IMG/VR virus record: IMGVR_UViG_3300021375_001810 | Direction: 5' to 3' (one strand) | From: a virus | DNA length: 64,000 bases | Notes under the pieces: model-generated | The model's database searches: none | What the model was told of the DNA's origin: nothing | The model's input: only the letters and a program-made list of their open reading frames with translations | Made by a program: the position numbers and the translations under genes | Shown: piece after piece, positions 2,603 through 9,896 of the stretch | How positions within the stretch are numbered: position 1 is the first letter of the stretch | How the letters are laid out: each line of letters opens with the position of its first letter

Positions 2603-2795
2603 TATTGAAGTTATGGAAGGACCATATGCAAAGGCTTTGACAGAAGATGTCGAAGGTGTTCTTTATCGAGAAATTAAAACTGTACGTGTAAAAGATGGCA
2701 TGCTAACTGAGTATGTTACAAAACGTAGTTATCATGAAAGTGGCGATTATAATGATACGTCATCAATTTCACCAATTATAAAGGTAGGATCATAA
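2592..2795 (+). CDS. hypothetical phage protein
   Basis: RBS GAGG, coupled to clpP. Confidence 0.65.
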
Positions 2796-3382
2796 TGCCG
2801 TTAGTACCTATGGTAGTAGAGCAAGAGTCACGTGGCGAACGTTCATATGACATTTATAGCCGATTACTTAAAGACCGTATTGTAATGCTTAATGGTCCAG
2901 TTGAAGATAATGTTGCTAACTTAGTTGTTGCTCAAATGTTATTTTTAGAAAGTGAAAATCCTGATAAGCCTATTAATTTTTATATTAATAGTCCGGGCGG
3001 TGTAATTACAAGTGGCATGAGCATTTATGACACTATGCAATATATCAAATCGCCTGTTCATACTATTGTAATGGGACAAGCATGTTCAATGGGTTCATTC
3101 CTTGCTCAAGCAGGTGAGCCAGGCAAACGTAAGATGTTGCCATATGCTCGTCATATGATTCATCAGCCAAGCGGTGGTTCACGTGGTATGCAAAGTGATA
3201 TTGAAATTCAATATCAAGAAATAACTAAAATGAAAACTATCCTTACTGAGTTGTATGTTAAACATAATTCAAAAGGTAAGACATACGAAGACTTTGAAAG
3301 AGACATGGATCGTGATACATTTATGTCTGCTCAAGAAGCACTTGACTATGGATTAGTTGATCAAATTGTGGAGAAAAAATAA
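2795..3382 (+). CDS. clpP: ATP-dependent Clp protease proteolytic subunit
   Basis: [28 protein letters not shown], catalytic Ser (ACSMG), His (MIHQP), Asp (DRD). Confidence 0.97.
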
Positions 3383-3567
3383 TGCCTATTCCGGAAAGAG
3401 TAACAGTACCAGAACCTAGAGACCCAAGCAAGAAACATTTTTATATTAGTCTTGTAAAAAGTGGGGTTAGAATTGTAGCAGGAATTGCTCTTTTCATGGG
3501 TGGTTATGCGGCCGCTGGTGTGTTGTTTATCGGAGCAGAACTTTTAGGTATTGCGGAGGAATTATAA
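3382..3567 (+). CDS. small membrane protein
   Basis: hydrophobic C-half, coupled ORF. Confidence 0.65.
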   Translation: MPIPERVTVPEPRDPSKKHFYISLVKSGVRIVAGIALFMGGYAAAGVLFIGAELLGIAEEL

Positions 3568-3878
3568 TGAGTGCAGCCGCTATGAGAGTTGACGAACTAA
3601 AAGAGTTTGTTGCTGAGAAAAAAGGTATTCCAACTGAAGAAGCACTAACTAAAATGTTACAAGAAAATGTTTTAGTAGTAACATTCAATAAACTTGATGG
3701 TGCTGAAAGAGTAATGACATGTACAAAATCGTTCAAAGTCATTCCAGAAGAAAATCACCCTAAAGACAGTAACACGAAACCTAAATTAGGTACTGTCACA
3801 GTTTGGGACACAAACGCTAAAGGTTGGCGTAGTTTCAAATATGATCGTGTAACAAAAGTAGAAGAAGGGAACGTTTAA
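3567..3878 (+). CDS. WYL_2/DUF2693-like SH3 beta-barrel protein
   Basis: VTFNKLDG.ER.M.CT and VWD....GWRSF motifs. Confidence 0.75.
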   Translation: MSAAAMRVDELKEFVAEKKGIPTEEALTKMLQENVLVVTFNKLDGAERVMTCTKSFKVIPEENHPKDSNTKPKLGTVTVWDTNAKGWRSFKYDRVTKVEEGNV

Positions 3879-3886
3879 ACTTATTC

Positions 3887-3976
3887 GGAGAGTTGGCTGA
3901 GTGGTCGAAAGCGGCACCCTGCTAAGGTGTTATACGGGCAACTGTATCGAGGGTTCGAATCCCTCACTCTCCGCCA
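3887..3976 (+). tRNA. tRNA-Ser(GCT)
   Basis: cloverleaf, CACC-CT-GCT-AA-GGTG anticodon arm, long variable arm, GTTCGAATC, encoded CCA. Confidence 0.95.
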
Positions 3977-3980
3977 AGAT

Positions 3981-4054
3981 GCGGGTGTAGTATAATGGTA
4001 TTATCACAGCCTTCCAAGCTGAGGACAGGGGTTCGATTCCCCTCACCCGCTCCA
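3981..4054 (+). tRNA. tRNA-Gly(TCC)
   Basis: GCGGGTG/CACCCGC acceptor, CT-TCC-AA loop, TCCA end. Confidence 0.95.
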
Positions 4055-4097
4055 TTAACTAGTAGTACAAACTAATAAGTAATCAGAGGTTACATTT

Positions 4098-4388
4098 ATG
4101 AAGATTCGCCCATTACACGATCGAGTGATCGTACGTCGTGAGGAAGAAGAAAAGAAAACAGCAGGTGGTATTTTCCTACCTGGTACAGCACAAGAAAAAC
4201 CTAACCAAGGAGAAGTAATTGCCGTCGGCAGTGGAAGGGTTTTAGAAAACGGAGAAGTTACTCCAGTCGATGTTAATGTCGGTGACATTATTGTATTTGG
4301 TCAATTTGCCGGTAGTGATAAGATTGATGCAGACGGTGAAGAACTAATTATTCTTAGCGAAGGCGATATTAAAGCCGTAATTGAATAG
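4098..4388 (+). CDS. groES: co-chaperonin GroES (bacterial-like)
   Basis: [33 protein letters not shown]. Confidence 0.96.
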
Positions 4389-4455
4389 AAAGGAAGCGTA
4401 GAGCCGCTTTAGAAAAGAAGGCAAGTAAGCGTCGATAAATAATTGACGCAATTAT

Positions 4456-4531
4456 GCTCCCGTAGCTCAGCAGGCAGAGCAACTGATTTGTAATCAGTAG
4501 GTCGTTGGTTCGATTCCGACCGGGAGCTCCA
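4456..4531 (+). tRNA. tRNA-Thr(TGT)
   Basis: GCTCCCG/CGGGAGC acceptor, TT-TGT-AA loop, CCA. Confidence 0.95.
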
Positions 4532-4537
4532 CTTTTT

Positions 4538-4612
4538 TCCGCAGTAGCTCAGTGGTAGAGCAGTTGACTGTTAATCAATTGGTCGTAGGTTCGACCCCTA
4601 CCTGCGGAGCCA
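4538..4612 (+). tRNA. tRNA-Asn(GTT)
   Basis: TCCGCAG/CTGCGGA acceptor, CT-GTT-AA loop, GCCA. Confidence 0.95.
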
Positions 4613-4681
4613 TCTTTTTACTTGACACATCTATTATTAGATGTTATGTTAGTATAGTAGAAACAAAGAAAGGACCCTAAG

Positions 4682-4987
4682 ATGAGAGAATGGGTATACA
4701 ACTGTTGGAATGTAGTAATGGATCACGAAAAGAATCCACTAAGTAATATTCCGGATTTTAGTACACGACATATGATCATGCAGGTACTAGCATGGATGTG
4801 GTGTATTGTGTTTGCTATCATCGTAGGTAGCATGTGGGCAGGCGTCATTAGTATGGTGCTTCATGCATTGTTGCTAGGTGCGATTGCAGTTACAGTAGTA
4901 ACATTTGAAACAGCAAAACGCAATCCAAAAATGTTTGTACGTGATAATATAATTAACTCTCGCGGTGTTGGTGGCGAACATGAGTGA
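4682..4987 (+). CDS. membrane protein (W..VMD...NPL..IPD family), paralog of 10008..10418
   Basis: two TM helices; motif shared with second copy. Confidence 0.75.
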   Translation: MREWVYNCWNVVMDHEKNPLSNIPDFSTRHMIMQVLAWMWCIVFAIIVGSMWAGVISMVLHALLLGAIAVTVVTFETAKRNPKMFVRDNIINSRGVGGEHE

Positions 4988-5306
4988 TTACACTTGCGAC
5001 AACTGGGTAGTTATCAAGATGAAAGGCGATGATCCTCACTATCGTCTTCTTGTTGGAACATCTGGCGGTTACTTAGATGGCGACAGTTGGCGTATGAACA
5101 GCGGTATCACGGGTGTAGAGAAACAGGCATATCTGTATGGATTCTATGGTAGTTCTGGTTCTGTGTATTGGTGCCATCAAGGAGGTTACGGGTTGCGTAT
5201 GAATAACGCCGGCGTGTATAATCAACTTAAAGAACGCTTTGGGGATACAGTTGAACTGATGCCTGAAGATACAGACTGGATGAATATGGATTGGATTATC
5301 ACTTAG
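4980..5306 (+). CDS. conserved hypothetical phage protein
   Basis: GGYLDGDSWRMNSGI and GSSGSVY motifs; ATG at 4980 preferred over 4965. Confidence 0.7.
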   Translation: MSDYTCDNWVVIKMKGDDPHYRLLVGTSGGYLDGDSWRMNSGITGVEKQAYLYGFYGSSGSVYWCHQGGYGLRMNNAGVYNQLKERFGDTVELMPEDTDWMNMDWIIT

Positions 5307-5309
5307 AGG

Positions 5310-5343
5310 TTGACACAACAAAATAAAGAGTGTATTATAAATA
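5310..5343 (+). promoter_or_regulatory. overlapping sigma70 (TTGACA-N17-TATTAT) and late (TATAAATA) promoters
   Basis: motifs at 5310-5315, 5333-5338 and 5336-5343. Confidence 0.7.
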
Positions 5344-5369
5344 CATAATAAGGAATACGGAATACTAAC

Positions 5370-5429
5370 ATGTCACAGACTAACACAATTTATATTACAA
5401 ATTGGCCACCTACCGGGGGTATGTCTTGA
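5370..5429 (+). CDS. putative leader peptide MSQTNTIYITNWPPTGGMS (19 aa)
   Basis: ATG..TGA ORF between promoter and terminator; below ORF-track cutoff. Confidence 0.5.
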   Translation: MSQTNTIYITNWPPTGGMS

Positions 5430-5457
5430 CGTGACTTTTTAAAAAGTTATTTTAAGC

Positions 5458-5494
5458 AAGCCCCTAGCAGTTAATTCGGTTAGGGGCTTTTTTT
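5458..5494 (+). terminator. intrinsic terminator (candidate attenuator)
   Basis: AAGCCCCTAGC / GTTAGGGGCTT stem followed by a T7 run. Confidence 0.85.
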
Positions 5495-5584
5495 ATAAAC
5501 TACACTACGCCTTACTGCAATAAGGTGTTTTTGCAGAGACAGAGGCCTCGAAAGGGCTAAAGATAGTGTAGTTCATAAAAAAAG
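5487..5584 (+). ncRNA. structured RNA of unknown function directly 5' of tRNA-Trp
   Basis: 21-bp closing stem with one mismatch (5487-5507 / 5564-5584) enclosing two hairpins and a possible pseudoknot. Confidence 0.55.
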
Positions 5585-5588
5585 TTTT

Positions 5589-5663
5589 ATGTGAGTGGTG
5601 TTAATGGTAGCACAGCGGTCTCCAAAACCGTTAGTCGGGGTTCGAATCCCTGCTCGCATGCCA
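5589..5663 (+). tRNA. tRNA-Trp(CCA)
   Basis: ATGTGAG/CTCGCAT acceptor, CGGT-CT-CCA-AA-ACCG, GCCA end. Confidence 0.92.
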
Positions 5664-5713
5664 ATTACCACTTTCTTGACTTTTAATTAAAAAGAAGTAT
5701 AATTATATTATAT

Positions 5714-5789
5714 GGGGCTGTAGCTCAGTTGGGAGAGCGACTGGTTTGCATCCAGTAGGTCGTAGGTTCGATCCCTATCAGCTCCACCA
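5714..5789 (+). tRNA. tRNA-Ala(TGC)
   Basis: GGGGCTG/CAGCTCC with G3.U70 identity pair, TT-TGC-AT loop, ACCA; own TTGACT-N16-TATAAT promoter at 5676-5703. Confidence 0.95.
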
Positions 5790-5797
5790 TTTTAATT

Positions 5798-6253
5798 ATG
5801 AAAGAATTAGTAGTTTTAGTAGGAGCACTTTTGTTAGCAAGAGTGTTACCTATATTAGATCCAAGTTACGCAAACTTTACCCCATTGTTTGCTGTAGCAA
5901 TATTCTTTCCGTTAACACAAAATAAACTATTATCTTATTCTGTACCGCTAGGAGTAATGTTTTTATCAGACTTATTCTTAGGTTTTAGTGCAATAAATTT
6001 AGTAGTGTATTTTGTGTTAGCACTTATCATATCATTATCACGTAGCATTAACAATTATGTTTATACTAGTATTATTGGTATAGGACTGTGGCATGTTATT
6101 GTAAACTTCTTTGTGTGGTTATCAAATCCTAGTATGTCATTATTACAAACTTATGCAATGGCTATACCATTTGACTTTAAACTGTTACTAAGCACATTAG
6201 TATATGGTACAGCATTGTCATTATTATTACAAAGGAAACATGCTTACACTTAA
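5798..6253 (+). CDS. DUF6580-like putative transporter membrane protein
   Basis: R......NFTP..A.A.F, P...M..SD...G, NF.VW, Y..AIPF motifs; multi-TM. Confidence 0.75.
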   Translation: MKELVVLVGALLLARVLPILDPSYANFTPLFAVAIFFPLTQNKLLSYSVPLGVMFLSDLFLGFSAINLVVYFVLALIISLSRSINNYVYTSIIGIGLWHVIVNFFVWLSNPSMSLLQTYAMAIPFDFKLLLSTLVYGTALSLLLQRKHAYT

Positions 6254-8057
6254 AAAAGGAAGAATTAAAAAAGATTTGAAAAGATTATTTAGAATTGACA
6301 ATATTATAACTATGGGCTTAATAGCACTACTGTTTTTTGGATTACGAGCCAATGCAGATGACCATTTAACATACCATGGACACACAGTTGACCCATTAGA
6401 AATTACAATATATGCATACCGTACAGCAAGTGATCACAGAGCAAAAACATACAGTTCAAATGTAATAGAAGCAGACGAACTAGACGATATAGAAGTATCT
6501 GGAGTTGACTTACAAACAACTGGACCTAAAGGACAACAAACAAGTTTGTTTATTAGAGGTACAAATAGCAATCATTCATTAATTGCTATTAACGGTATTA
6601 GTATTAAAGACCATAGTACAATTTCTGGAAATGACGATCTAGGACAAATAGGAATATTAGGGTTTGATCAAATTGAAATTATAAAAGGCCCGGCTGGTTC
6701 ATTGTATGGACCTGATGCTGTTGGAGGTGTAATTAACTTACAATCAGGTATTAATTATAATAATGAATTAAAGTATACACTAGGATCAAACAACCTAAAG
6801 AAACAAAATTTAAGTCTTGGTGAAAGTGTAGGTGCTCATCTTTTTAGCCTTGATATTGAAAAAGAATCTAGTGATAGTATCAGTGTAGCAGAAGGTCCTG
6901 AAACTGATCCATATGTATTTCGTAATTACAACTTTGTATACGAAACATATTTAGACAATGGATATGTGTTAACTGGAAATTTAATTGGTAGAAATAACGA
7001 TAGCAATCTTGACGGAGGTGGTGTTGATGATCTTGACTATACAGGTAATTGGAAATTTAACAATAGACAAATAGCACTAAAGAATAAAACTACTGCGTTT
7101 GTTTATAATAATTCAGAACATAAAAGACAATACACAGATGACGGATTGGTTAGTAACTATAACAGTATTAGCGATACATTTTTAACACATAAAACGTCTA
7201 CAATAAACGAAATAGACTTTACATATGGACTAGAGTACGTAACTTCTAAAGCAGATTTTGAAGTTAATTTGCCATATTATACTTCATTAGTAAATGCAAC
7301 ACGTAATAATACAGGACTATTCTTTGGTAGTGATTATGTAATAGACGGTACTGTTGGGTCGTTTGGTGTAAGATATGACAATGCTAGTAACTTCAAAAAC
7401 GAATGGACATATAGAGTTGGTATAGCAAGAGGCAATTATAGGTTAAGTCATTCAACAGGATTTAAAACTCCTACCGTTTACGAAATGTATGGTATAGATA
7501 ATTACGGTTTTGAAGGCAATCCAAACTTATTTTCTGAAACTAGTAAGTCTTATGAAATTGGATATAATGACGGAGCATTAGATGTTGCGGTGTTTACTAC
7601 TTCAGTTAAGGATACATTGACATACGAAGGTTCAACATATAACAATAAAGGTACAAGTAGACACAATGGTGTAGAAATACAATATACAAATACGTTTGGT
7701 CCAGTAACTCTAGTAAACGGTTATACATTATTGTTTACAGAAGATACAAACGGACAGGATCTTTTGCGTCGACCAAAACATAGTTACAACGGTAATATAT
7801 ATTATGATGTTGACAGTACTACTAGACTAAAACTTAATGCAAGGTATGACGGAAAGTATGACGATATTCACAGTTCGACTTGGCAAAGAACAGAAATGCC
7901 GTCAGTATCACTTTTTGATGTGTCATACCAAAAGTATGTGGACAACATTTTATTTGAAATAAAGGTTGACAACGTAACTAATAAGCGTTATAATAAACCA
8001 CATGGATACAAGCAGACAGGTAGAACATACCTTGCTAGTATTGCATACATATTTTGA
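6240..8057 (+). CDS. TonB-dependent outer-membrane receptor, BtuB-like
   Basis: signal peptide ending ANA, plug motifs SLFIRGTNSNH and IEIIKGP.GSLYG.DAVGGVIN, C-terminal Phe; ATG 6240 has AAGGA RBS. Confidence 0.9.
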   Translation: MLTLKKGRIKKDLKRLFRIDNIITMGLIALLFFGLRANADDHLTYHGHTVDPLEITIYAYRTASDHRAKTYSSNVIEADELDDIEVSGVDLQTTGPKGQQTSLFIRGTNSNHSLIAINGISIKDHSTISGNDDLGQIGILGFDQIEIIKGPAGSLYGPDAVGGVINLQSGINYNNELKYTLGSNNLKKQNLSLGESVGAHLFSLDIEKESSDSISVAEGPETDPYVFRNYNFVYETYLDNGYVLTGNLIGRNNDSNLDGGGVDDLDYTGNWKFNNRQIALKNKTTAFVYNNSEHKRQYTDDGLVSNYNSISDTFLTHKTSTINEIDFTYGLEYVTSKADFEVNLPYYTSLVNATRNNTGLFFGSDYVIDGTVGSFGVRYDNASNFKNEWTYRVGIARGNYRLSHSTGFKTPTVYEMYGIDNYGFEGNPNLFSETSKSYEIGYNDGALDVAVFTTSVKDTLTYEGSTYNNKGTSRHNGVEIQYTNTFGPVTLVNGYTLLFTEDTNGQDLLRRPKHSYNGNIYYDVDSTTRLKLNARYDGKYDDIHSSTWQRTEMPSVSLFDVSYQKYVDNILFEIKVDNVTNKRYNKPHGYKQTGRTYLASIAYIF

Positions 8058-8117
8058 AGGATTTACCTTTAGAATTAATAACCGAAGGTAAGACTTCACA
8101 ATAGAGAGAAAGATAGA

Positions 8118-8315
8118 ATGGTAACAGGAAAAGTAAAATGGTTTGATGCAACTAAAGGATTTGGGTTCATTACCCCAGACGATGGCGGAGCAGATGTATT
8201 TGCACATCACTCAGGCATCAATGGAGATGGATACAAGTCTTTAGCAGAAAACCAAGAAGTTACATTTGAAATAATTGAAGGCCCTAAAGGTCTACAAGCA
8301 ACCAACATCACGTAG
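8118..8315 (+). CDS. cspA: cold-shock protein
   Basis: GKVKWF...KGFGFI (RNP1), DVFAH (RNP2), GPKGLQA. Confidence 0.95.
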
Positions 8316-8327
8316 TATAACTTAGTA

Positions 8328-8402
8328 GGCCCGTTCGTCTAGTGGTTAGGACACATGGTTTTCATCCATGCAACAGGAGTTCGATTCTCCTACGGGCTAC
8401 CA
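8328..8402 (+). tRNA. tRNA-Glu(TTC)
   Basis: GGCCCGT/ACGGGCT acceptor, CATGG-TT-TTC-AT-CCATG, CCA. Confidence 0.93.
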
Positions 8403-8408
8403 TTTTAC

Positions 8409-8483
8409 GGTCTGGTAGTTAAACGGTTATAATTCCGCCCTGTCACGGCGGCGTTCGGGGTTCGATTCCCCGTCAGACCGCCA
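8409..8483 (+). tRNA. tRNA-Asp(GTC)
   Basis: GGTCTGG/TCAGACC acceptor, CCGCC-CT-GTC-AC-GGCGG, GCCA. Confidence 0.93.
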
Positions 8484-8490
8484 TTAGTGG

Positions 8491-8519
8491 TTGACATTTA
8501 ATCTATTAGAGGTTATAAT
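8491..8519 (+). promoter_or_regulatory. sigma70-type promoter for ligase
   Basis: perfect TTGACA-N17-TATAAT. Confidence 0.85.
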
Positions 8520-8555
8520 GTATATAACAATTAGGCAAATACAAAGAGGCAACAT

Positions 8556-9896
8556 ATGCGAACACAACCACAAGACATAATATCAAAACTTGAACAACAC
8601 AATAGCAGATTGGACAAAGAGGCTATTGTATTTGGTGCAATGGGCGAAGGACTCGACGAGTTCTTTGAAGGTGTTCAAATGGCTCTTGATCCACTAGTAA
8701 CATTTGGCGTTAAGCAAGTACCTGAAAAAGCAGAAAACGAAGTATTATCTGCACAAGGTTGTGAGTGGAAAATATTTAAAGAACTTGCAGATAAACTTAT
8801 TGCAAGAGAACTTACAGGACATGCGGCAAGAGATGCTATTGAACTTGTAATGTCAACAGCAACCGCAGAACAATGGAATGGCTTTTACAGACGTATCTTA
8901 ATTAAGGATTTACGTTGTGGTGTAAGTGAAAAGACTGTAAACAAAGTTGCCAAAAGGTTTAATCCTAAAGGCGAAACAAAATATATGATTCCTACATTCA
9001 CATGTAGTCTAGCACACGACTCTGCTAACCACGAAAAAAAGATGGTTGGTAAAAAGCAAATTGAAATCAAACTAGATGGCGTAAGAGTCATTACTATTAT
9101 CCAAGGCGACAAGGTAGAAATGTTTAGTCGTAACGGTAAACAGTTTCATAACTTTGGACATATTATTGAAGAAATTGAAACTGTAATTAAAGATCACCCT
9201 GTACCTTATCCGCTAGTATTAGATGGAGAGGTAATGAGTGCTAACTTCCAAGATCTTATGAAACAAGTACATCGTAAAGATGGTAAACAAACTACTGATG
9301 CTGTATTGCATTTGTTTGATACTATTCCTTTAGGTTGCTTCAAAGCAGGTAGTTGGGATAAGCCGCAGAGCTTTAGAAGTCAAATTACTAAGCATTGGGT
9401 AGAAGACCATGCAGACGTCTTAGAGCACGTACAAGCGTTGGATTGGGAAGATGTAGACTTAGACACTCCTGAAGGCCAAGAACGCTTTGTAGCGTTAAAT
9501 AAAGCGGCTGTAGACGGTGGTTACGAAGGAGTTATGATTAAGGACGTTGATGCTCCTTATGAATGTAAGCGAACTCATGCATGGCTTAAAGCAAAGCCGT
9601 TCATTGAGGTAACATTAGAGGTAAAGGATGTCGAAGAAGGAACAGGACGAAATGAAGGACGACTTGGTGCATTTGTTTGTGAAGGAATTGATGACGGAAA
9701 GAAAATTAATGTTAATGTCGGCAGTGGCTTTAGTGATGCTAATCGTGACGACTTTTGGAATAGTCGCACTGATATCACAGGTCAACTTGTAGAAGTAAGA
9801 GCTGATGCTGTAACACAAAACCAAGACGGAACTTATAGTTTACGTTTTCCAAGATTTAAAACATTCCGTGGCTTTGAGCCCGGAGAAAAATTATAA
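8556..9896 (+). CDS. ATP-dependent DNA ligase
   Basis: KLDGVR adenylation motif, LDGE, EGVMIK, WLKAK, C-terminal SLRFPRF OB-fold. Confidence 0.96.
   Translation: MRTQPQDIISKLEQHNSRLDKEAIVFGAMGEGLDEFFEGVQMALDPLVTFGVKQVPEKAENEVLSAQGCEWKIFKELADKLIARELTGHAARDAIELVMSTATAEQWNGFYRRILIKDLRCGVSEKTVNKVAKRFNPKGETKYMIPTFTCSLAHDSANHEKKMVGKKQIEIKLDGVRVITIIQGDKVEMFSRNGKQFHNFGHIIEEIETVIKDHPVPYPLVLDGEVMSANFQDLMKQVHRKDGKQTTDAVLHLFDTIPLGCFKAGSWDKPQSFRSQITKHWVEDHADVLEHVQALDWEDVDLDTPEGQERFVALNKAAVDGGYEGVMIKDVDAPYECKRTHAWLKAKPFIEVTLEVKDVEEGTGRNEGRLGAFVCEGIDDGKKINVNVGSGFSDANRDDFWNSRTDITGQLVEVRADAVTQNQDGTYSLRFPRFKTFRGFEPGEKL

What the first reader, a model, noticed from the sequence alone, without database searches (positions are those of the whole stretch)
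5487..5584. Unclassified ~100-nt structured RNA between the terminator and tRNA-Trp
Seen: a 21-bp closing helix with one mismatch (CTTTTTTTATAAACTACACTA / TAGTGTAGTTCATAAAAAAAG) that takes in the terminator U-tract. It encloses hairpin CGCCTTA-CTGCAA-TAAGGTG, whose loop is exactly complementary to the downstream TTGCAG (pseudoknot or alternative fold). A second GC-rich GAAA-containing hairpin lies at 5544-5558. The element ends 4 nt before tRNA-Trp. I could not fit it to hammerhead, HDV/theta, SAM-II or tRNA consensus. Inference: a novel ncRNA, RNase III-type processing signal or ribozyme co-transcribed with the tRNA.
Basis: partly seen in the sequence, partly recalled or inferred. Interest (0 to 1): 0.7.

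Follow-up and report, generated by a model that had tools for sequence, protein, structure and literature searches.

The report
Pseudoknotted spacer RNA before phage tRNA-Trp
The ~100-nt element in front of this marine phage's tRNA-Trp gene belongs to a previously unclassified, strongly conserved family of pseudoknotted RNAs that ocean T4-like phages place in the discarded parts of stable-RNA precursors; its function is still unknown.

Summary

It has no Rfam family. It is absent from 50,697 deposited phage genomes and from cellular reference genomes sampled. It recurs in well over 100 marine viral contigs of the Melnitz/pelagimyophage type.

The same core fold occurs in four settings:
- as the intervening sequence of phage two-piece (permuted) tmRNA genes, which is the commonest and most diverse setting;
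- 10-18 nt upstream of tRNA-Trp/Cys (this window);
- about 10 nt upstream of tRNA-Pro;
- about 20 nt downstream of a manA-like RNA.

Five sequence subfamilies share one architecture: a closing stalk of 20 bp or more, a hairpin whose 6-nt loop forms a 6-bp pseudoknot, a variable second hairpin, and invariant unpaired ACA and AAG. 22 of 27 base pairs show compensatory changes, including three pseudoknot pairs.

Best reading: an excisable processing/spacer module of phage stable-RNA operons, with an RNase III-type stalk next to an RNase P site. A new self-cleaving ribozyme or a cargo small RNA remain live alternatives.

Earlier scan notes had flagged the phage tmRNA spacer as a variable slot and the window's upstream Trp leader as an attenuator. 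None described this motif.

The parts
5487..5507 (+). 5' strand of the closing stalk (P1). The core 9 bp are 5499-5507. 5487-5498 is the context-specific extension that reuses the terminator U-tract.
   Evidence: All 9 P1 core pairs show compensatory changes. The stalk enclosing the core has a median of 23 bp in tRNA-leader copies.
5508..5527 (+). P2 hairpin: 7-bp stem (5508-5514/5521-5527) with a 6-nt loop (5515-5520) that is the 5' strand of the pseudoknot.
   Evidence: 6 of 7 P2 pairs are compensatory across subfamilies.
5531..5536 (+). 3' strand of the 6-bp pseudoknot (or alternative helix) with the P2 loop. It lies 3 nt after P2.
   Evidence: Perfect complement. 3 of 6 pairs are compensatory and 98.8% of cells pair. 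The pseudoknot is not part of the covariance model, so the alignment was not fitted to it.
5537..5543 (+). J2/3 purine-rich junction holding the family-wide invariant ACA.
   Evidence: Alignments A1-A3.
5544..5558 (+). P3 hairpin (5 bp, loop CGAAA). It is the variable peripheral stem.
   Evidence: 4 of 5 pairs are compensatory, and length varies between subfamilies.
5559..5563 (+). J3/1 junction holding the family-wide invariant AAG.
   Evidence: Alignments A1-A3.
5564..5584 (+). 3' strand of the closing stalk (P1). The A-run 5577-5583 pairs with the terminator U-tract.
5589..5663 (+). tRNA-Trp (CCA) with encoded CCA. Its RNase P site lies 4 nt after the stalk.
   Evidence: A tRNA starts 10-18 nt after the core helix in all 21 leader-type contexts.
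5460..5494 (+). GC hairpin (5460-5466/5481-5487, 14-nt loop) plus U7: a terminator/attenuator directly abutting the element.
   Evidence: The hairpin sequence differs between loci but the pairing is kept. The simple scan missed it because the loop exceeds 8 nt.
5310..5429 (+). Upstream module found in most leader-type copies: a sigma70-like promoter (5310-5338), an RBS, and a 19-codon leader ORF (5370-5429) with a conserved W-P-P.
   Evidence: The peptide is conserved through synonymous changes in about 17 loci.

Best explanation
The element is one member of a new family of compact pseudoknotted RNA modules. Marine Melnitz/pelagimyophage-like T4-type phages embed these modules in the parts of stable-RNA precursors that are thrown away during maturation.

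Shown:
- A conserved core (P2 hairpin, 6-bp loop pseudoknot, ACA and AAG junction residues, variable P3) sits on top of a closing stalk.
- The local flanks always extend that stalk to roughly two helical turns.
- The module always lies on the strand of, and directly next to, an RNA end that must be made. It sits between the CCA end and the GGGG start of two-piece tmRNAs, 10-18 nt before a tRNA 5' end, or about 20 nt after a manA-like RNA.

Inferred:
- The module acts in cis as punctuation.
- The long stalk is a double-strand-specific (RNase III-type) cleavage substrate that opens the precursor.
- RNase P then cuts at the adjacent tRNA or tmRNA 5' end, and exonucleases trim the upstream 3' end.
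- The pseudoknotted cap folds fast and independently, so the stalk forms rather than mispairing with the neighbouring tRNA-like domains. It may also position the cut or stabilise the excised piece.

In the window, transcripts that read through the Trp-leader terminator would carry the module, and it would be removed to release tRNA-Trp.
For: - Real RNA structure. 22 of 27 pairs have compensatory changes, and 96.9% of cells pair against 29-48% in slid controls. 0 of 500 shuffles reach the observed values. Frequent G-U pairs fit only the + strand RNA.
- Position rule. 49 of 50 canonical contexts are inside a permuted tmRNA or just 5' of tRNA-Trp/Cys; the 50th is truncated at a contig end. The L299-type subfamily lies in a tmRNA IVS, 5' of tRNA-Pro, or 3' of a manA-like RNA.
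- tmRNA identity of the flanks comes from ARAGORN and Rfam RF01849/RF04321.
- The IVS is known to be removed by tRNA-processing enzymes (PMC11915505).
- The stalk enclosing the core has a median of 23-28 bp in all five context classes, built from unrelated flank sequences.
- Cellular alphaproteobacterial IVS also close with 7-13 bp helices but lack the core. The stalk therefore looks like a generic precursor feature.
- The core is 86% identical between contexts whose flanks are at chance identity of about 40%. Close relatives of the window phage lack it entirely. It therefore behaves as a transferable module.
Against: - No cleavage data of any kind exist. RNase III involvement rests only on stalk length and analogy.
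- A plain hairpin would serve as a processing stalk. The extreme conservation of the pseudoknot, ACA and AAG is not explained by a passive spacer role and hints at a specific catalytic or binding function.
- Full P2 (7-8 bp) plus the full pseudoknot with only a 2-4 nt linker looks sterically strained. The fold may switch between conformers, which a simple spacer would not need.
- The conservation figures are partly inflated, because most copies were found by matching the core.
Confidence: 0.42

Rival explanations
1. It is a new class of small self-cleaving ribozyme that cuts stable-RNA precursors independently of host nucleases. It would free the CCA end of the tmRNA acceptor piece, or detach the leader from the tRNA.
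For: - The size (about 60-nt core), a pseudoknot, a few invariant unpaired junction nucleotides (ACA, AAG) and freely covarying peripheral stems are the typical signature of small ribozymes.
- The placement is independent of context and always sits next to RNA ends that must be generated.
- From my own knowledge, not tested here: hammerhead and HDV-like theta ribozymes are known beside phage tRNAs.
Against: - No Rfam ribozyme model matches, even at E up to 10.
- The strand order does not fit hammerhead, pistol or HDV-like cores (inspected by hand).
- A ribozyme would not need the stalk of 20 bp or more that every context maintains.
- There are no biochemical data.
Confidence: 0.22
2. The core is the product: a trans-acting small RNA or protein-binding RNA. 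It has no promoter of its own, rides inside stable-RNA operons, and is liberated through its stalk by tRNA/rRNA-type processing.
For: - The same core is kept nearly unchanged in four unrelated host transcripts.
- The paired 5' and 3' ends would protect an excised RNA.
- It sits beside other orphan stable RNAs: a manA-like RNA and tmRNA.
- Phage tmRNA spacers act as a slot for varied cargo (scan notes e1-5691443, e1-5355709, e1-5390324).
Against: - No free single-stranded seed is left if the pseudoknot forms.
- No partner protein or co-occurring gene was identified.
- Accumulation of the excised RNA is unknown.
Confidence: 0.2
3. It is a ligand- or factor-sensing switch (riboswitch-like) that gates maturation or read-through. 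It would work by alternating between the P2 hairpin and the pseudoknot helix.
For: - Both P2 and the pseudoknot helix covary.
- The sum of P2 3' strand plus linker stays at 9-10 nt, suggesting two conformers.
- It lies after an attenuator in the window, and after a riboswitch-candidate manA-like RNA elsewhere.
Against: - There is no consistent downstream expression platform or gene class.
- Its position inside a tmRNA spacer is hard to reconcile with gene control.
- The glnA and other riboswitch models do not match.
Confidence: 0.08
4. It is a selfish or neutral insertion that survives because leaders and tmRNA spacers are safe harbours removed by processing.
For: - Sporadic presence or absence among close relatives.
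- Inverted-repeat ends.
- Several insertion contexts.
Against: - Compensatory changes in four helices across five subfamilies, together with invariant junction residues, show long-term selection on an RNA fold.
- There are no target-site duplications or an associated transposase.
- The stalks differ between contexts through compensated substitutions and are not identical copies.
Confidence: 0.05

Closest known systems
Intervening sequence (IVS) of circularly permuted two-piece tmRNA genes (Keiler, Shapiro and Williams 2000; PMC11915505; phage examples in PMC9004378)
   Same: Most family members are exactly this segment. They lie between the encoded CCA and the GGGG 5' end, closed by a helix that stacks on the acceptor stem, and are removed during maturation.
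   Different: Known IVS are treated as variable, unstructured or simple-hairpin spacers. Here a conserved pseudoknotted core is present, and the same core is reused outside tmRNA genes, as in this window. Cellular IVS sampled lack it, and so does the Melnitz IVS.
RNase III processing stalks of rRNA operons and phage T7 early RNA (own knowledge)
   Same: A long duplex formed by sequences flanking an excised unit inside a polycistronic stable-RNA transcript. The stalk is 20 bp or more in every context.
   Different: Cleavage is not shown. The enclosed unit is a 60-nt pseudoknotted cap and not an rRNA or a simple loop.
Small self-cleaving ribozymes beside phage tRNAs (hammerhead, HDV-like theta, pistol)
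   Same: Similar size, a pseudoknot that uses a whole 6-nt hairpin loop (as in pistol), conserved junction residues, and adjacency to tRNA ends.
   Different: No model match. The order of strands around the junction differs from pistol and hammerhead, and there is no nested double pseudoknot as in HDV-like ribozymes. Activity is untested.
Orphan phage RNA motifs manA and wcaG (Weinberg et al. 2010, PMC2864571)
   Same: Conserved structured RNAs of unknown function, found almost only in marine T4-like phages and metagenomes. One subfamily lies directly 3' of a manA-like RNA.
   Different: Unrelated sequence and fold, much smaller, and not in 5' UTRs of protein genes.
Stable species 1 and 2 RNAs (rnaC, rnaD) of the phage T4 tRNA cluster (own knowledge)
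   Same: Small non-tRNA RNAs co-transcribed with phage tRNAs and released by tRNA-processing enzymes, with function still unknown.
   Different: No sequence or structural similarity was tested or is expected. The T4 RNAs lie 3' of the tRNAs.

Membership tests
Any Rfam 15 family | Covariance-model score at or above the family's gathering score | tested here: not met
   Only tRNA, tmRNA and a sub-threshold manA match are found nearby. Nothing covers the element in the window or in related loci.
tmRNA intervening sequence | Lies between the acceptor-piece CCA and the coding-piece GGGG of a permuted tmRNA gene | tested here: not met
   The window copy is flanked by a terminator hairpin and tRNA-Trp, and the 64-kb window holds no tmRNA. 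The feature is met for 28 canonical and 25 or more other family members elsewhere.
Hammerhead ribozyme | Three-way junction with a CUGANGA and GAAA core and an NUH cleavage site | tested here: not met
   No CUGANGA is present in J2/3. The first residue of J3/1 varies between A, C, G and U. No Rfam hammerhead hit.
Pistol ribozyme | Hairpin loop forming a 6-bp pseudoknot, with strand order hairpin, P2a, PK strand, P3, cleavage linker, P2b | tested here: not met
   The 6-bp loop pseudoknot is present. However, the closing-helix 5' strand precedes the hairpin, giving a different cyclic order. No RF02679 hit.
HDV-like / theta ribozyme | Nested double pseudoknot (P1, P1.1, P2, P3, P4) with cleavage at its own 5' end | tested here: not met
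   The helices cannot be mapped onto that topology (structure plus the pseudoknot). No Rfam hit.
Glutamine (glnA) riboswitch reported next to phage tmRNAs | glnA motif consensus with an E-loop (RF01739) | tested here: not met
   No hit at E up to 10. The Melnitz glnA-like sequence lies 3' of the tmRNA and not in the IVS (PMC9004378).
RNase III substrate | About two turns of near-continuous dsRNA | tested here: met
   21 bp with one mismatch in the window. The median is 23-28 enclosing pairs in all contexts.
RNase III substrate | Staggered double-strand cleavage by RNase III | not testable with these tools
   Needs an enzyme assay or end-mapping.
Miniature inverted-repeat mobile element | Identical terminal repeats, target-site duplication and many dispersed copies per genome | tested here: not met
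   One copy in the window. The arms differ between contexts by compensated changes that include G-U pairs. No flanking duplications were seen.

The most novel reading that the evidence does not exclude
The module is a new class of self-cleaving ribozyme (or a protein-independent processing RNA). Abundant ocean phages would use it as portable punctuation to mature their own tmRNA, tRNAs and other stable RNAs without relying on host nucleases.
Probability: 0.2. Interest if true: 0.9.

Novelty: new variant of a known kind. Interest (0 to 1): 0.66.

Why it matters
Structured RNA families with full covariation support and a pseudoknot are rare finds, and this one sits in globally abundant phages of SAR11/OM43-type hosts.

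It links three things that were considered separately: the discarded spacer of two-piece tmRNAs, tRNA leaders, and the orphan manA-type RNAs. That points to a shared logic of RNA punctuation in phage stable-RNA operons.

It is small enough (about 80 nt) for immediate tests of self-cleavage, RNase III/P processing, ligand binding and structure. If it is catalytic, it would add a ribozyme class. If it is a processing signal, it would explain how permuted tmRNA precursors are opened, a step that is still poorly defined.

Tried and rejected
- Rfam at gathering and permissive thresholds, on the window and on 30 or more related loci: no family.
- BLASTN of the element against 50,697 phage records: nothing.
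- Exact-core scan of 185,579 species genomes: one hit, L153. It is only a chance terminator hairpin lacking the rest of the element.
- 80 loci syntenic through the upstream ORF: only one carries the element.
- The near-identical relatives L086 and L087 lack it.
- G001, the nearest held record, has no copy.
- The first degenerate patterns were too loose or badly formed.
- Cellular permuted tmRNA IVS: no core by architecture filter or by covariance model with filters off.
- Glutamine-riboswitch identity was rejected.
- Hammerhead, pistol and HDV-like topologies were rejected by inspection.
- The DNA-level readings of a MITE or a bidirectional terminator were rejected, because G-U pairs and internal-helix covariation indicate a + strand RNA.
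- I did not use the metagenome scan, structure prediction or complex prediction. None applies to an RNA of unknown partner.

Full report
**1. Observation.**
The sequence at 5487-5584 is as described.
- A 21-bp inverted repeat with one mismatch (5487-5507/5564-5584) is the best inverted repeat within 3000-9500.
- It encloses a 7-bp hairpin (5508-5527). The hairpin's 6-nt loop (5515-5520) is perfectly complementary to 5531-5536.
- A second 5-bp hairpin with a CGAAA loop lies at 5544-5558.
- tRNA-Trp starts at 5589.
- The MFE fold reproduces the three nested helices at -32.2 kcal/mol, with z = -5.2 against dinucleotide shuffles.
- Rfam 15 finds only the eight tRNAs in the window, and nothing credible on the element even at E up to 10.

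**2. What genome this is.**
All nearby genes are on the + strand and densely packed. Pfam finds ClpP, an ATP-dependent DNA ligase, a TonB-dependent receptor and DUF6580. The only nucleotide-level relatives among deposited phages are the Methylophilales Melnitz myophages. The window's own assembly is not held. This is a marine T4-like phage of the Melnitz/pelagimyophage group.

**3. The element is widely conserved and sits in two main contexts.**
The 20-nt inner hairpin occurs exactly in 65 IMG/VR contigs. A pattern anchored only on the 3' half finds 78, adding 13 that differ by one base in the hairpin. These resolve into 50 distinct contexts:

| Context | Count |
|---|---|
| Inside a circularly permuted tmRNA gene | 28 |
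| 10-18 nt upstream of tRNA-Trp | 19 |
| Upstream of a tRNA-Cys/tRNA-Trp pair | 2 |
| Truncated at a contig end | 1 |

In the tmRNA context the element fills the segment between the encoded CCA of the acceptor piece and the GGGG of the coding piece. ARAGORN calls these permuted tmRNAs with alphaproteobacterial-type tags. Rfam RF01849 and RF04321 match strongly, with the element appearing as an insertion in the loop of the model. That segment is the intervening sequence (IVS), absent from mature tmRNA and removed by tRNA-processing enzymes (PMC11915505).

A long tmRNA-context locus shows UvsX, a gp41-like helicase, ThyX, then the tmRNA, CsgG and curlin. This is the synteny published for Melnitz and pelagimyophages (PMC9004378). 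Both contexts therefore belong to one phage group.

**4. It is absent elsewhere.**
- No deposited phage genome has it.
- The single hit in 185,579 species genomes is an unrelated terminator hairpin.
- Of 80 loci syntenic through the upstream ORF, only one carries it.
- Two contigs that are 99% identical in the downstream gene have tRNA-Trp with no element and with different upstream ORFs.

The element is thus a module that comes and goes.

**5. Removing ascertainment bias: a wider family.**
The first copies were found by matching the core, so I scanned for viral permuted tmRNAs with IVS of 60-90 nt without specifying the core. Among 126 unique IVS, 24 have a hairpin with a 6-nt loop plus a perfect 6-bp complement a few nucleotides downstream. 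These include divergent versions with different helices but the same architecture: the L299 type, L327 and L433. A covariance model later added L430 and L409.

The pseudoknot sequence differs between them in a compensated way: CUGCAA/UUGCAG, AUGCAC/GUGCAU, CUGUAA/UUACAG, CUGCAC/GUGCAG and CUGCAU/AUGCAG. The model built only from canonical copies still finds the divergent ones at E from 1e-8 to 0.01.

On a 28-sequence alignment spanning all subfamilies and contexts:
- 22 of 27 pairs show changes on both sides;
- 96.9% of cells pair, against 29-48% when partners are slid;
- no shuffle out of 500 reaches the observed values.

The pseudoknot is not part of the model, so the alignment was not fitted to it. 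It has three compensated pairs and 98.8% pairing. The two unpaired cells are an alignment artefact of a one-base loop insertion in L430 and L409, where the pair is in fact C-G and U-A.

Frequent G-U pairs place the structure on the + strand RNA. The only universally conserved unpaired residues are ACA in J2/3 and AAG in J3/1.

**6. More contexts.**
The L299-type subfamily is as common as the canonical one, at 65 contigs. Its 39 distinct contexts are:
- tmRNA IVS (25);
- about 10 nt upstream of tRNA-Pro (4, plus L424);
- about 20 nt downstream of a promoter-driven conserved RNA of about 200 nt (10).

That upstream RNA gives a full-length but sub-threshold match to the orphan manA motif (28.5 bits, E 2e-5, gathering score 55.2). 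manA is a marine-phage RNA of unknown function (PMC2864571), and a 2026 preprint reports that it forms RNA cages.

Some contigs carry both a tmRNA whose IVS lacks the core and a separate copy of the module by a tRNA or a manA-like RNA. The window has a single copy.

**7. Anatomy bearing on mechanism.**
- *Stalk length.* In every context the duplex enclosing the core is long, with a median of 23-28 predicted pairs. It is built from unrelated flanks: the terminator U7 with a downstream A7 in the window type, the acceptor stem in tmRNAs, and other A/U runs before tRNA-Pro and after the manA-like RNA.
- *Generic versus specific parts.* Cellular alphaproteobacterial IVS also close with 7-13 bp helices but lack the core. 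Melnitz's IVS has a closing helix and about 125 nt of unrelated content that includes a small ORF. The stalk is therefore the generic precursor feature and the pseudoknotted cap is the family-specific part.
- *P2 and the pseudoknot.* The linker between P2 and the pseudoknot strand is only 2-4 nt. The sum of P2 3' strand plus linker is constant at 9-10 nt, so longer P2 stems have shorter linkers. Full P2 and the full pseudoknot are therefore either strained or alternate.
- *Conservation.* The core is 86% identical between contexts whose flanks are at chance identity. Within each context it is more conserved than the adjoining tRNA or tmRNA. Ascertainment inflates this figure.

**8. The window's local setting.**
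Most leader-type copies share an upstream module:
- a near-consensus sigma70 promoter (5310-5338, 11 of 12 matches);
- an RBS;
- a 17-22-codon ORF (5370-5429 in the window) with a conserved Trp codon followed by Pro-Pro, and an ending conserved at both nucleotide level (an invariant GGGG) and peptide level, with synonymous differences between loci;
- a GC hairpin plus U7.

The invariant GGGG is complementary to the CCCC of the terminator's 5' arm. This fits the attenuator reading that other first-stage notes gave for 5310-5663. I checked it only this far. Under that reading the module is carried only by read-through transcripts and must be removed to release tRNA-Trp.

**9. Interpretation.**
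Firmly shown: a new, widespread family of pseudoknotted RNA modules with all four helices supported by covariation. They are confined so far to marine T4-like viral contigs, and always lie in discarded segments of stable-RNA precursors next to an end that must be generated.

Most likely (about 0.4): a cis-acting processing/spacer module. Its long stalk would be cut by a double-strand-specific nuclease, and RNase P and exonucleases would finish the neighbouring ends.

The strong conservation of the cap keeps two alternatives alive at about 0.2 each. One is a new self-cleaving ribozyme. The other is that the cap is the product, a cargo small RNA released through its stalk. A ligand-sensing switch and a selfish insert are less likely.

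The diversity of subfamilies in tmRNA IVS, against a single subfamily in each tRNA-leader context, suggests the tmRNA spacer is the ancestral home and the window's position is derived.

**10. Novelty.**
Neither the tmRNA database paper, the Melnitz paper, the literature searches nor Rfam describe it. Earlier notes of this scan describe the phage tmRNA spacer as a variable slot holding other cargo, and flag sub-family-bearing tmRNAs only as tmRNAs. None reports this motif.

Noticed in passing
window 5310-5494: A conserved regulatory-looking module sits upstream of the element: a strong sigma70-like promoter, an RBS, and a 19-codon ORF with a conserved Trp-Pro-Pro. The ORF's invariant 3' GGGG is complementary to the terminator's 5' arm. 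A GC hairpin plus U7 follows. The peptide is conserved through synonymous changes in about 17 loci, which is consistent with a Trp-sensing leader (attenuator or arrest peptide) for a phage tRNA-Trp.
   Followed up: partly
L600 9923-10126; also L589, L594, L607, L612, L637; 3' end seen in L192 ~40-95: A promoter-driven conserved RNA of about 200 nt gives a full-length but sub-threshold match to the orphan manA motif (RF01745: 28.5 bits against a gathering score of 55.2). It appears to be a divergent manA-like family in pelagimyophage-type contigs, directly followed by the module.
   Followed up: partly
L101 11441-11524, L131 11224-11308, L192 324-408: Some phage tRNA-Trp(CCA) genes downstream of the module are 84-85 nt long with a long variable arm. 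That is unusual for tRNA-Trp.
   Followed up: no
L252 1560-1700 (Melnitz MZ577097.1 tmRNA IVS): The IVS of about 145 nt in the Melnitz two-piece tmRNA contains an RBS-preceded small ORF inside a helix-closed spacer. The glnA-like motif reported for Melnitz lies 3' of the tmRNA (about 1885-1935).
   Followed up: no
L299, L418, L422, L425, L468, L327 (upstream of the tmRNA acceptor piece): A T4-type late-promoter box (TATAAATA) lies just upstream of many phage permuted tmRNA genes. This suggests late transcription of phage tmRNA.
   Followed up: no
window 5798-8057: The phage encodes a DUF6580 membrane protein followed by a 617-aa TonB-dependent receptor (Plug plus beta-barrel), an unusual auxiliary gene pair. 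ClpP lies at 2795-3382.
   Followed up: no
L596 ~3580-3770 (minus strand), L618, L632, L635: About 190 nt of conserved non-coding sequence lies between tRNA-Gly and the module that precedes tRNA-Pro. It may be another structured RNA.
   Followed up: no
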